47,721 nt of DNA from an uncultured Gammaproteobacteria bacterium (GTDB taxonomy: Bacteria > Patescibacteriota > Patescibacteriia > UBA1558 > S5-K13): contig CAZWKI010000002.1 of the NCBI GenBank assembly GCA_964634645.1, positions 266 through 47,986 on the forward strand, read 5' to 3'. Positions 287-40,809 of this stretch are shown here, one piece after another. The translations under genes and the position numbers were made by a program. Below the pieces are notes generated by a model. That model was not told the DNA's origin and did no database searches. It saw nothing but the letters and a program-made list of their open reading frames with translations. The number at the start of each line of letters is the position of its first letter. The first letter of the stretch is position 1.

Positions 287-541
287 GGGCGTGTAGCTCA
301 GTTGGTTAGAGCGCAACACTGACCCGCCTCCCGAAGTACAAACACAAATCAATTAAATTGAAAACTTTATTATCTATTGTTGGAGGGCGCATAGCTCAGT
401 TGGTTAGAGCGCAACACTGATAATGTTGAGGTCCCAAGTTCAACTCTTGGTGCGCCCACCAACAGTTGATAATACTGTTGTCCTTCGTACGGAGGGCAGG
501 TAATGTTGAGGTCCCAAGTTCGATCCTTGGCACGCCCACCA
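287..541 (+). tRNA. tRNA-Ile(GAU) interrupted between anticodon positions 35/36 by a 178-nt insert (323-500)
   Basis: Halves 287-322 and 501-541 join into a perfect 77-nt cloverleaf with encoded CCA. The ends of the insert are complementary to each other. Confidence 0.6.
385..461 (+). tRNA. tRNA-Ile(GAU), complete, lying inside the insert of the outer tRNA-Ile
   Basis: Hand-folded cloverleaf: GGGCGCA/TGCGCCC acceptor, anticodon loop CTGATAA, TTCAACT T-loop, CCA end. Confidence 0.9.
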
Positions 542-826: not shown

Positions 827-903
827 CGGGGTGTGGCGCAGTTGGCTAGCGCGCGTGCTTTGGGAGCATGAGGCCGTGGGTTCGAGTCCCACCACCCCGA
901 CCA
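827..903 (+). tRNA. tRNA-Pro(UGG)
   Basis: Cloverleaf with C1:G72, loop TTTGGGA, TTCGAGT T-loop, CCA. Confidence 0.9.
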
Positions 904-967
904 GTATAAACAGATAAGCTCTGTTTTTTATTTTTATATAATTTATATAATTAAGCTTACTTTAAAT

Positions 968-1032
968 GGTGGGACGATAAGTTTATCCCGCCGAAGCTTT
1001 AGTGAAGGCGGGAAGTCCCACCACCCCGACCA
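968..1032 (+). pseudogene. tRNA-Pro 3' fragment (T-arm, acceptor 3' strand and CCA) with a 28-nt GC hairpin (986-1013) inserted in the T-loop
   Basis: 1014-1032 AGTCCCACCACCCCGACCA is identical to the 3' end of tRNA-Pro(UGG). GGTGGGA at 968-974 pairs with TCCCACC. Confidence 0.7.
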
Positions 1033-1087
1033 TTCGACTCATCCCACTTTGTAGGATTCGCTCATGGTCTTCGACCAAAATTGAAAT

Positions 1088-1135
1088 ACAGATTAAATCT
1101 GTTTTTTTATTTACCAAAAAATTATAAAGTGATAA
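1088..1135 (+). repeat. 48-nt direct repeat (left copy) bracketing the TPR insert
   Basis: 44/48 identical to 3397-3444. Contains a weak ACAGA..TCTGT hairpin followed by a T-run. Confidence 0.8.
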
Positions 1136-3973: not shown

Positions 3974-4113
3974 TAAAATCTTGAAATTTCCTAGCAAATT
4001 TAAATAGACAAAAACCCTCATTTCACAAAACCCTCTATTTATCATATAATTTAAAAGTGCTATAATAAAAGTGCCTATAAACAAAGGGCAAACTAATCAT
4101 TAATTAAAATAAA

Positions 4114-4395
4114 ATGGCAAAGATGACAAAATCTCAGCTAATGACAATGTTGGCTGAAAAAACAGGTTTATCTAAAAAAGATGTAGTAAACTTCATGGAT
4201 GTGCTTGTTGACGTAGCATACAAAGAAGTAAAAAATGGTGGCGAATTCGTTTTACCAGGATTTGGTAAAATGGTAAAAGCAAGAAGAAAAGAAAGAATGG
4301 GAGTAAACCCAGCAACAGGAGAAAAAATTAAGATTGCAGCAAAAACTGTTGTAAAATTCAGATTGGCAAAAGCAGCAAAAGAGGCTGTATTATAA
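4114..4395 (+). CDS. hup: HU/IHF-family DNA-binding protein
   Basis: MTKSQL...FGKMVKARRKERMGVNPATGEKIKI beta-arm motif. Terminator follows. Confidence 0.9.
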   Translation: MAKMTKSQLMTMLAEKTGLSKKDVVNFMDVLVDVAYKEVKNGGEFVLPGFGKMVKARRKERMGVNPATGEKIKIAAKTVVKFRLAKAAKEAVL

Positions 4396-40740: not shown

Positions 40741-40809
40741 TGTTCTATAAACAAACTTCTCGTCCCGCCGAAATTTTAATGAAGGCGGGATCCGTTGAAC
40801 TACGAGGGC
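40741..40809 (-). pseudogene. tRNA-Arg(CCU) 5' fragment (positions 1-27) with a 42-nt insert in the D-loop containing hairpin 40763-40790
   Basis: TCCGTTGAACTACGAGGGC and TGTTCTAT match the real gene on either side of the insert. Confidence 0.75.

What the first reader, a model, noticed from the sequence alone, without database searches (positions are those of the whole stretch)
827..1032. tRNA-Pro(UGG) followed by a 3' self-fragment with the hairpin element sitting in the T-loop
1014-1032 repeats the last 19 nt of tRNA-Pro, including the CCA. GGTGGGA at 968-974 can still pair with TCCCACC as an extended T-stem.

The T-loop has been replaced by about 40 nt ending in TCCCGCCGAAGCTTTAGTGAAGGCGGGA (986-1013).

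Taken together with the D-loop cases (Val, Ala, Arg-CCU) and the anticodon-loop cases (Ile, Arg-UCU), every insertion of this element family into tRNA-derived sequence falls in a loop.
Basis: seen in the sequence. Interest (0 to 1): 0.6.

Follow-up and report, generated by a model that had tools for sequence, protein, structure and literature searches.

The report
Miniature tRNA-linked repeat behind tRNA-Pro
The "broken tRNA-Pro tail with a hairpin in its T-loop" is a complete miniature copy of the tRNA-linked repeats (RtT/TLR elements) known, with no known function, behind E. coli tRNA genes since 1978, and the same small module turns out to sit behind tRNA genes in many bacterial phyla.

Summary
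Window 1014-1032 repeats the last 19 nt of tRNA-Pro(UGG), GGTGGGA (968-974) pairs with TCCCACC, and a GC hairpin lies at 986-1013.

The interpretation needs revision. This is not a dead tRNA copy whose T-loop caught a mobile hairpin. It is one self-contained unit:
- a 5' arm that is a Watson-Crick reverse complement of the tail from position 59;
- a conserved unpaired core GA(G/T/A)AAGTTTA;
- a hairpin;
- an unpaired A58;
- the tRNA tail.

In 68 units from many genomes the 5' arm complements the 3' strand and does not copy the tRNA's own T-stem (position 54': 66 to 0). The tail is copied from gene DNA: it lacks CCA wherever the gene does. In 17 of 53 loci the trailer is duplicated as well.

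E. coli tRNA-linked repeats (Rfam RtT) share the outer stem, the GAGAAG core and the tail starting at A58. My model built from CPR units finds the E. coli repeats in register.

Units are low-copy and patchy, occur across phyla, and have no linked enzyme. The mechanism and function remain inferred. The scan met this module before on other DNA.

The parts
827..903 (+). Intact tRNA-Pro(UGG) gene with encoded CCA. Its T-loop is TTCGAGT, and positions 885-903 (A58 to CCA) are the first copy of the tail.
   Evidence: ARAGORN; Rfam tRNA 67.2 bits
910..929 (+). Terminator-like hairpin 1: ACAGA-taagc-TCTGT followed by a T run, part of the spacer between the tRNA and the unit.
   Evidence: Read from the sequence. 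Not called by the scanner, which needs at least 3 G-C pairs. Resembles hairpin 2.
967..975 (+). IR-L, the 5' arm of outer stem P1 (TGGTGGGAC). It is the exact reverse complement of tail positions 59-67 (1015-1023).
   Evidence: Folds; comparison with the tRNA's own 48-54, CGTGGGT; rule confirmed on 68 units
976..985 (+). Unpaired conserved core GATAAGTTTA. The family consensus is GAGAAGTTTA; E. coli RtT has GAGAAGCTTC.
   Evidence: Alignment A2; cross-phylum pattern scan; Rfam RtT consensus
986..1013 (+). Inner hairpin P2: TCCCGCC-GAAGCTTTAGTGAA-GGCGGGA.
   Evidence: P2 covaries: 4 of 7 pairs have changes on both sides
1014..1032 (+). Tail: the second copy of tRNA-Pro positions A58 to CCA. A1014 (= A58) is unpaired, and 1015-1023 form the 3' arm of P1.
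1033..1077 (+). Post-CCA element TTCGACTC...CTCATGGTCTTCGACCA. It is a separate repeated element that also follows the Leu(TAG) tail on contig C32 and follows intact tRNAs in relatives. It ends with the same CGACCA as the tRNA.
1088..1108 (+). Terminator-like hairpin 2: ACAGA-ttaaa-TCTGT followed by a T run. It is the probable duplicate of hairpin 1, so the unit sits between two terminator-like hairpins.
   Evidence: local alignment of the two trailers; the S1/S2 similarity is only marginal (z = 2.6)

Best explanation
Window 967-1032 is one complete miniature tRNA-linked repeat (TLR; the E. coli RtT/tyrT-repeat type).

Shown: the unit is [IR-L = Watson-Crick reverse complement of the tail from position 59] + [unpaired core GA(G)AAGTTTA] + [GC hairpin] + [unpaired A58] + [copy of the tRNA gene from A58 to its 3' end]. 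It lies a few tens of bases behind the intact tRNA. The tail is copied from the gene DNA, not from mature tRNA. In recent cases the gene's trailer is duplicated too. So the unit arises by a DNA-level event that places a module of about 35-60 nt between two direct copies of the segment that starts at A58 and ends at a variable point beyond the tRNA. Modules resemble each other by genome or clade, not by tRNA type, while IR-L and the tail always match the local tRNA. So the arm is made anew from each target.

Inferred: a nick opposite TTCG|A in the T-loop-coding DNA primes copying of a module template. A short snap-back onto the primer strand creates IR-L. A second nick downstream then yields the long, variable target duplication. 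Unequal recombination expands the units into arrays.

Inferred: the unit is transcribed by read-through from tRNA-Pro. It folds as P1/bulge/P2 and ends in a tRNA-like single-stranded 3' tail that the tRNA 3'-end processing machinery can trim. It is non-autonomous, and its cellular role, if any, is unknown, as for the E. coli TLRs.
For: Architecture in G000: Pro and an exact twin behind tRNA-Leu(TAG) on contig C32. My covariance model R1 finds just these two units plus a decayed one behind tRNA-Tyr.

A first set of 13 units in relatives, on Gln, Leu, Asn and Asp tRNAs, follows the same rules. P1 has compensatory changes at 6 of 8 pairs, no one-sided changes, and 0 of 500 shuffles reach the observed covariation.

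In an independent test set of 16 new hits, the base before GAGAAG is T when the tRNA has A59 and C when it has G59. IR-L is perfect up to 10 nt, and G042 has a tandem pair of units.

Across 68 units, IR-L complements the 3' strand 95 times and copies the 5' strand 3 times at informative positions 49-54.

The tail lacks CCA in all 42 loci whose gene lacks CCA, and it often runs on into the gene's trailer. The whole spacer is duplicated in 17 of 53 loci, 8 of them at 100% identity. The G001 tRNA-Asp locus shows the fresh state, with 58/60 trailer identity.

E. coli link: the tyrT/V repeats carry GGGGAAGGAT (the reverse complement of A59-C68), then GAGAAGCTT, then a tail starting at A58. The Rfam RtT consensus has the same outer stem and unpaired GAGAA. 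R1 ranks the three full RtT repeats top, in register, at E about 0.003. The proK, serX and arg TLRs also carry IR-L, and proK and serX carry GAGAAS.

TLRs are defined by 18-19 bp identical to the 3' end of the upstream tRNA or rRNA gene and have no known function (PMC8144298).

The pattern scan found at least 120 stretches across Patescibacteria, Bacteroidota (including cultured isolates), Firmicutes, Cyanobacteria, Acidobacteriota and Gammaproteobacteria.
Against: Rfam RF00391 does not score the CPR units. The reciprocal hit of R1 on E. coli is weak (16.9 bits, with rough E-values). The large conserved inner domain of E. coli TLRs is absent. So common descent with E. coli TLRs is likely but not proven.

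For the Pro locus itself the two trailers are only marginally similar (z = 2.6), so the duplication of the trailer is inferred from other loci. In 26 of 53 loci the two trailers show no similarity.

No enzyme is linked to the units. Reverse transcriptase is missing from 8-9 of the 20 unit-bearing genomes of the order. The link with HUH/Y1 transposases disappears once the unit-free family f5 is set aside. So the priming and snap-back mechanism has no identified catalyst.

Both G000 units deviate from GAGAAG at the third base.
Confidence: 0.6

Rival explanations
1. First reader's model. A once-complete second tRNA-Pro copy lost its 5' part, and a mobile GC hairpin inserted into its T-loop because loops of tRNA-like structures are the preferred targets. 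GGTGGGA is the surviving T-stem.
For: The hairpin is related to hairpins inside other tRNA fragments of this genome. Genuine clean insertions into complete tRNA copies exist nearby: Ile-GAT at 35|36, with an uninterrupted 'empty site' in G003, and Thr-GGT at 21|22.
Against: The arm differs from the tRNA's 48-54 exactly where the tRNA is unpaired or wobble-paired, and instead complements positions 59-67. There is no tRNA homology upstream of position 967. The identical architecture recurs behind many tRNA types in many phyla, with the trailer duplicated as well.
Confidence: 0.07
2. The unit is primarily a functional small RNA gene (a TLR sRNA). It is maintained because it borrows the tRNA's 3'-end processing signal, and the conserved GAGAAG bulge is a binding site for a universal host factor. 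The DNA duplications are only how new copies arise.
For: An unpaired core is conserved from CPR to E. coli while the flanking helices covary. E. coli RtT RNA is processed from the tyrT transcript, and the rrn-linked TLRs are transcribed, processed and bind Hfq and CsrA in vitro (PMC8144298). The orthologous Leu(TAG) unit is retained in two genera, G000 and G007. The unit lies between two terminator-like hairpins, as the rrn TLRs do.
Against: Distribution is patchy (20 of 86 genomes; none in family f5), with 1-3 copies on varying tRNAs, decayed copies, and perfectly identical recent arrays. P1 never uses G.U pairs, which an RNA constraint would allow. No function is known for the tRNA-linked TLRs even in E. 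coli.
Confidence: 0.25
3. Scar of a GIY-YIG homing-type cassette (like phage T4 SegB in tRNA clusters). The nuclease cut the tRNA gene, and repair left a duplicated tail plus hairpin. The nuclease gene has since been lost at the Pro locus.
For: All four small GIY-YIG genes of G000 lie next to tRNA genes, and one directly follows the twin Leu(TAG) unit. SegB is a known precedent (PMC2330249).
Against: In about 80 cross-phylum loci no GIY-YIG or any other protein family recurs near the units. The orthologous G007 Leu(TAG) unit has no such gene directly behind it. The Pro unit is followed by a terminator-like hairpin and a TPR gene.
Confidence: 0.08
4. attL/attR remnant of an integrase-mediated element that used the T-loop of tRNA-Pro as its crossover site, with nearly all of the element later deleted.
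For: Tails starting in the T-loop are classic for tRNA att sites (general knowledge: the sublocation classes described by Williams, 2002). One XerC/D-like recombinase frame is present in the genome.
Against: Only about 110 nt lie between the repeats. The same conserved module and templated arm occur at dozens of loci without integrases. Tandem arrays have periods as short as 55 nt. The trailer duplications start exactly at A58.
Confidence: 0.03
5. Assembly artefact of a metagenome-assembled genome.
For: G000 is a 55-contig MAG. No reads could be examined, and no independent assembly of the same locus was found.
Against: The same architecture occurs in complete chromosomes and cultured isolates, including E. 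coli K-12. An orthologous unit exists in another genus. The rules (covariation with N59 and N60) cannot arise from misassembly.
Confidence: 0.01

Closest known systems
tRNA-linked repeats (TLRs) of E. coli, including the tyrT/tyrV 178-bp repeats and RtT RNA (Rfam RF00391; Egan & Landy 1978 and Rudd 1999 as cited in PMC8144298)
   Same: Both lie directly behind a tRNA gene. Both end with 18-19 nt identical to the tRNA's 3' end, starting at A58. Both have an outer stem formed by an upstream segment complementary to the tail from position 59, an unpaired GAGAAG/GAGAAC core right after that segment, tandem arrays, and no known function.
   Different: The CPR/Bacteroidota units are 55-100 nt, against about 130-180 nt in E. 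coli. They replace the conserved inner domain (GCAACGGCCCGAAGGGCGAG...GCGAGT) with a simple hairpin. They are not detected by RF00391. They occur on many tRNA types and in many phyla.
REP/REPIN elements mobilised by RAYT (HUH Y1) transposases, and IS200/IS605 ends
   Same: Both are short, non-coding GC hairpins with a conserved flanking motif, non-autonomous, and in intergenic positions. G000 encodes one Y1 transposase.
   Different: REPs do not carry a copy of the neighbouring gene's 3' end, have no target-matched arm, and reach high copy numbers. Units here number 1-3 per genome. The phyletic link to Y1 transposases is weak.
Target-primed insertion of non-LTR retroelements (fixed first nick, variable second nick, variable-length target duplication)
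   Same: One junction is fixed (TTCG|A), the other is variable, and the direct duplication of the target is long and variable.
   Different: No reverse transcriptase is linked or consistently present. The module is only about 35-60 nt. The templated inverted arm has no counterpart in those elements.
Free-standing GIY-YIG homing endonuclease SegB in the phage T4 tRNA cluster (PMC2330249)
   Same: A small GIY-YIG gene sits among tRNA genes, next to the twin Leu(TAG) unit of this genome.
   Different: No nuclease is at the Pro unit or near units in other phyla. Homing does not explain the templated arm.

Membership tests
tRNA-linked repeats (TLR) as defined in PMC8144298 | Located in a tRNA or rRNA operon immediately downstream of the stable-RNA gene | tested here: met
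   The unit starts 63 nt after tRNA-Pro, on the same strand.
tRNA-linked repeats (TLR) as defined in PMC8144298 | 18-19 bp at its 3' end identical to the 3' end of the upstream gene | tested here: met
   19/19 identity, 1014-1032 against 885-903.
tRNA-linked repeats (TLR) as defined in PMC8144298 | Transcribed with the operon and processed to a discrete RNA | not testable with these tools
Rfam RtT (RF00391) | Covariance-model score at or above the gathering threshold (45 bits) | tested here: not met
   No hit at E <= 10 at the locus or anywhere in the genome. No hit in 16 diverse loci.
Rfam RtT (RF00391) | Outer stem between an upstream segment and the tRNA-tail copy, unpaired GAGAA after the stem, single-stranded acceptor/CCA tail | tested here: met
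   Rfam consensus compared with the Pro fold. R1 aligns the E. coli RtT repeats in register.
Rfam RtT (RF00391) | Conserved inner domain (GCAACGGCCCGAAGGGCGAG...GCGAGT) | tested here: not met
   Replaced by the 28-nt hairpin at 986-1013.
Integrase att site in a tRNA gene | Direct repeats of the tRNA 3' part flanking an integrated element that encodes, or once encoded, an integrase | tested here: not met
   About 110 nt of non-coding DNA lie between the repeats. There is no integrase nearby, and none near units elsewhere.
REP/REPIN (RAYT-mobilised) | Many copies per genome of a hairpin with a conserved flanking tetranucleotide, co-occurring with a RAYT gene | tested here: inconclusive
   Only 2-3 units per genome. 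A Y1 transposase is present. Co-occurrence is 16/20 against 26/66, but it is confounded by family f5.
GIY-YIG homing cassette (SegB-like) | Nuclease gene adjacent to the duplicated or disrupted target | tested here: not met
   None at the Pro locus. Present only at the Leu(TAG) twin. Not recurrent across phyla.

The most novel reading that the evidence does not exclude
tRNA-linked repeats are a pan-bacterial family of tiny non-autonomous elements. They propagate by a nick at the universal TTCG|A of T-loop-coding DNA. At each new site they copy the host tRNA gene's own 3' end and build a matching inverted arm from it. This would be a previously unrecognised insertion mechanism, and it would explain the E. 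coli tyrT/RtT repeats, unexplained since 1978.
Probability: 0.3. Interest if true: 0.8.

Novelty: new variant of a known kind. Interest (0 to 1): 0.6.

Why it matters
TLRs have been known in E. coli for nearly fifty years, yet the recent literature I could read states that they have no known function, and the copied tRNA tail has no explanation (PMC8144298). This finding makes two questions testable.

- It gives a much smaller version of the element (down to 55 nt) with explicit rules: the junction at A58, an arm templated on positions 59 onward, and a GAGAAG core.
- It shows the module in many phyla, including cultured Bacteroidota and a Lactobacillus relative.

That provides minimal constructs for finding the factor that reads the core. 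It also provides many independent insertion events for working out how the duplication is made.

For genome annotation, it explains a class of apparent tRNA pseudogene fragments and "att-like" scars behind tRNA genes.

Tried and rejected
1. Archaeal-type split or BHB-intron tRNAs. Rejected: the organism is a bacterium (NusA, type IV pilus genes).
2. A small ribozyme or other known RNA. A permissive Rfam scan of 900-1130 gave only chance hits.
3. RF00391 on the own genome and on 16 diverse loci: no hits.
4. The first pattern scan (CGAWAAGTTTATCC with one mismatch) was nearly as frequent as its control. Only the recurrent variants were followed up.
5. Trailer duplication at the Pro locus itself: only marginal (z = 2.6).
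6. Recurrent neighbouring proteins across about 80 loci: none.
7. Phyletic profiles within the order. Reverse transcriptase is present in 11-12 of 20 unit-bearing genomes and about 43% of the others. Y1 transposase is present in 16 of 20 against 26 of 66, but the contrast is carried by the unit-free family f5. Both are inconclusive.
8. Promoter and terminator scan: no calls in the spacer. The two weak hairpins are below the scanner's G-C rule.
10. Independent assemblies: no exact match to the Pro unit in metagenome contigs. There were two other Pro-tail units of different types.
11. 16S-based placement with RF00177 failed, because only the 3' end of the gene is on the contig.

Full report
**1. 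Context**

The window is contig C2:266-47986 of a 949-kb, 55-contig, 29% G+C genome. NusA and type IV pilus genes show it is bacterial. Its relatives and the named hits place it among Patescibacteria/CPR. The window opens with the 3' end of a 16S rRNA gene, followed by tRNA-Ile, tRNA-Phe and tRNA-Pro. This order is conserved in relatives.

**2. The observation**

- tRNA-Pro(UGG) is at 827-903.
- Its last 19 nt recur exactly at 1014-1032, with none expected by chance.
- Region 966-1032 folds into a 9-bp outer stem (967-975 with 1015-1023), a 10-nt bulge (976-985) and the hairpin. The z-score is -4.0 as DNA and -4.6 as RNA.

**3. A twin in the same genome**

tRNA-Leu(TAG) on contig C32 is followed, after a terminator and an A/T spacer, by GAGGA|CGAAAAGTTTA|hairpin|AGTCCTCTTCCCGGTACCA. 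After that come the same post-CCA element as at Pro and a small GIY-YIG gene. The module and the post-CCA element align between the two loci, while the tRNA-derived parts follow the local tRNA.

**4. The rule for the 5' arm**

Thirteen units were collected from relatives on Gln, Leu, Asn and Asp tRNAs. In each, the segment before the core is a perfect Watson-Crick reverse complement of the tail.

- The base before GAGAAG pairs with N59.
- The next base pairs with N60: A for T60, G for C60. The tRNA itself has T54 at the corresponding place.
- G.T wobbles of the host T-stem appear as A-T.
- Pair counting gives 6 of 8 P1 pairs with compensatory changes, no one-sided changes, and 0 of 500 shuffles as high.

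Sixteen further units were found with a covariance model (R1) and had not been used to build it. They confirm the rule and add the T:A59 / C:G59 covariation, arms perfect to 10 nt, and a tandem pair.

Over 68 distinct units from all sources, the arm complements the 3' strand 95 times and copies the tRNA's 5' strand 3 times at informative positions 49-54. At position 54' the count is 66 to 0. The arm is therefore templated on the tail. It is not a relic T-stem.

**5. The tail is gene DNA, and the trailer can be duplicated**

The hits include:
- several Patescibacteria lineages;
- many Bacteroidota, including cultured Salinimicrobium, Arenibacter and Christiangramia;
- Levilactobacillus lindianensis and Oscillospiraceae;
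- a Synechococcus MAG, Acidobacteriota, Armatimonadetes and Gammaproteobacteria MAGs.

Of the 80 loci held, 53 have a tRNA within 130 nt upstream and a tail copy. In 42 of these the gene lacks CCA and so does the tail, and the tail often continues identically into the gene's trailer. All host T-loops read TTCGAG (40) or TTCGAA (19). The pattern used here restricts N59 to a purine, so the census does not test N59. The requirement for TTCGA is the informative part (about 61% of this genome's own tRNAs have TTCGA).

In 17 of 53 loci the whole spacer is repeated after the tail, 8 of them at 100% identity and including single-unit loci. G001 tRNA-Asp shows the fresh state: tRNA(1-57), then [A58..CCA plus about 60-nt trailer], then [arm + core + hairpin], then [A58..CCA plus the same trailer], with 58/60 trailer identity.

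Arrays reach 7 x 114 nt, and the shortest period is 55 nt. At the Pro locus the two terminator-like hairpins resemble each other. The second trailer also carries an extra 45-nt post-CCA element that ends in the same CGACCA as the tRNA. The trailer similarity at Pro is marginal (z = 2.6).

**6. Link to a known class**

Earlier notes of this scan likened the G001-type duplication to the E. coli tyrT repeats. I tested this directly.

- Each 178-bp tyrT/V repeat carries GGGGAAGGAT, the reverse complement of tail A59-C68. It is followed by GAGAAGCTT, a structured domain, and the tail AATCC...CCA.
- Rfam's RtT consensus has this outer stem and an unpaired GAGAA.
- R1, built only from CPR units, ranks the three full RtT repeats first in 24.6 kb, in exact register, at E about 0.003.
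- RF00391 finds 16 units in K-12. The proK, serX and arg units also have arms of 6-8 nt, and proK and serX have GAGAAC/GAGAAG.

The literature names these tRNA-linked repeats. There are 22 at ten loci in K-12, each with 18-19 bp identical to the 3' end of the upstream tRNA or rRNA gene, and with 'no known function'. The early stringent-response claim was retracted. Three rrn-linked members lie between dual terminators and bind Hfq and CsrA in vitro (PMC8144298). In the searchable library TLRs are discussed only for enterobacteria.

The CPR units fail RF00391 and lack its inner domain. I therefore file them as a new, miniature variant rather than as members of that Rfam family.

**7. Distribution and autonomy**

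- In the order, 20 of 86 genomes carry 1-3 units. One family of 39 genomes has none.
- G000 has two intact units and one decayed unit.
- Hairpin types cluster by genome or clade, not by tRNA type. For example, G000 Pro resembles G000 Leu(TAG) more than the latter resembles its G007 ortholog, and the f2 genomes share TCCCGAGC..GTCGAGGGA on Gln, Leu and Asn. So modules move or convert between loci, while the arm and tail are local.
- No protein family recurs next to units.
- Phyletic profiles for reverse transcriptase and Y1 transposase are inconclusive.

**8. Mechanism (inferred)**

The geometry is one fixed junction at TTCG|A, one variable junction, a long direct duplication, and a short inverted copy of the flank at the module's far end. 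It fits the following sequence of events:
- priming from a nick in the bottom strand opposite G57|A58;
- copying of a module template;
- a brief snap-back on the primer strand;
- a second nick downstream;
- later unequal recombination that builds arrays.

The catalyst is unknown. An RNA-level role is a non-exclusive alternative: a read-through transcript folded as P1/bulge/P2 with a tRNA-like 3' tail.

**9. The 'loops' generalisation**

Junctions of hairpin-bearing tRNA fragments in G000 lie at:
- 12|13 (Val, Ala, Thr), 14|15 (Ser), 19|20 (Arg-CCU) and 21|22 (two Thr);
- 35|36 (Ile-GAT, Ile-TAT, Arg-UCU);
- 57|58 (Pro, Leu).

3' fragments also start at 40|41, two of them with an adjacent hairpin. 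Most GC palindromes are unrelated to tRNA sequence. The 12|13 and 40|41 junctions are inside stems. The pattern is therefore real but not strict. For the T-loop class it reflects a conserved DNA site rather than loop accessibility.

**10. Limits**

- No independent assembly of the Pro unit was found.
- E-values from R1 are rough.
- Kin are not independent.

Noticed in passing
window 287-541 (C2:552-806): A complete second tRNA-Ile(GAT), with compensatory acceptor-stem changes, is split at 35|36 by a 178-nt insert. GC-rich inverted arms in the insert enclose the intact tRNA-Ile. Relative G003 has the outer-type gene uninterrupted (an empty site), and the inner gene is 100% identical to G009's.
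   Followed up: partly
G000 C6:2498-2687 (-) and C28:10784-11040 (+), outside the window: Two more nested cases. tRNA-Thr(GGT) is split at 21|22 by CCTGCCCGCC..[intact tRNA-Thr]..GGCAGGCGGGG. tRNA-Ile(TAT) is split at 35|36 by arms enclosing an intact tRNA-Ile(UAU), which is a rare anticodon for bacteria.
   Followed up: no
window 1033-1077; C32 about 4102-4146 (-); L006 326-370; L047: A conserved post-CCA element (TTCGAYTC..hairpin..CTCATGGT..CGACCA) sits directly after tRNA 3' ends or tail copies. At Pro it ends in the same 6 nt as the tRNA. The E. coli RtT inner domain contains the similar string CTTCGACCAAGGTTCGACTCGAG.
   Followed up: partly
window 40741-40809 (-): The Arg(CCU) D-loop insert reads hairpin + GGCGGGA|C|GAGAAGTTTG. 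This is the same arm-plus-core as the TLR-type unit, but without the inner hairpin and tail. It may be a fragment of such a unit lodged in a tRNA 5' fragment.
   Followed up: partly
G000 C32:3815-4036 (-): The small GIY-YIG frame behind the Leu(TAG) unit has one in-frame TGA at the position of a conserved Trp (..IKG*TRIKK..). This is either a recent nonsense mutation or local recoding.
   Followed up: no
G000 C6:2235-2297 (-): A decayed unit lies behind tRNA-Tyr (GAGAATCTTTA + TCCCGCT..AGCGGGA + ..CCCACCA; 18 bits with R1). tRNA-Tyr is also the host of the classic E. coli repeats.
   Followed up: partly
L078 (G016:C27:1286-1348): A 20-nt palindrome, CCTGCCTGCCGGCAGGCAGG, is inserted inside the tail of a TLR-type unit. 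The same palindrome is scattered through G000 and sits in the D-loop of a tRNA-Thr(CGT) fragment (C30:2893-2912).
   Followed up: no
L136 (OY782766.1, Prolixibacteraceae chromosome): Seven identical units with a 114-nt period lie behind tRNA-Arg(TCT). L168 (Paceibacterota) has two units with a 55-nt period and no spacer at all.
   Followed up: partly
G000 C14:4810-4949 (-): Two tandem 3' halves (positions 41-75, 97% identical to tRNA-Arg-CCU) lie downstream of tRNA-Arg(GCG), which is a different isoacceptor. Each is preceded by a GC hairpin.
   Followed up: no
G000 C15:8194-8895 and C25:15193-15828: Two reverse-transcriptase genes, each within about 1-1.5 kb of a GC-rich perfect hairpin (C15:9806, C25:16107). 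These are possibly diversity-generating retroelements or retrons.
   Followed up: no
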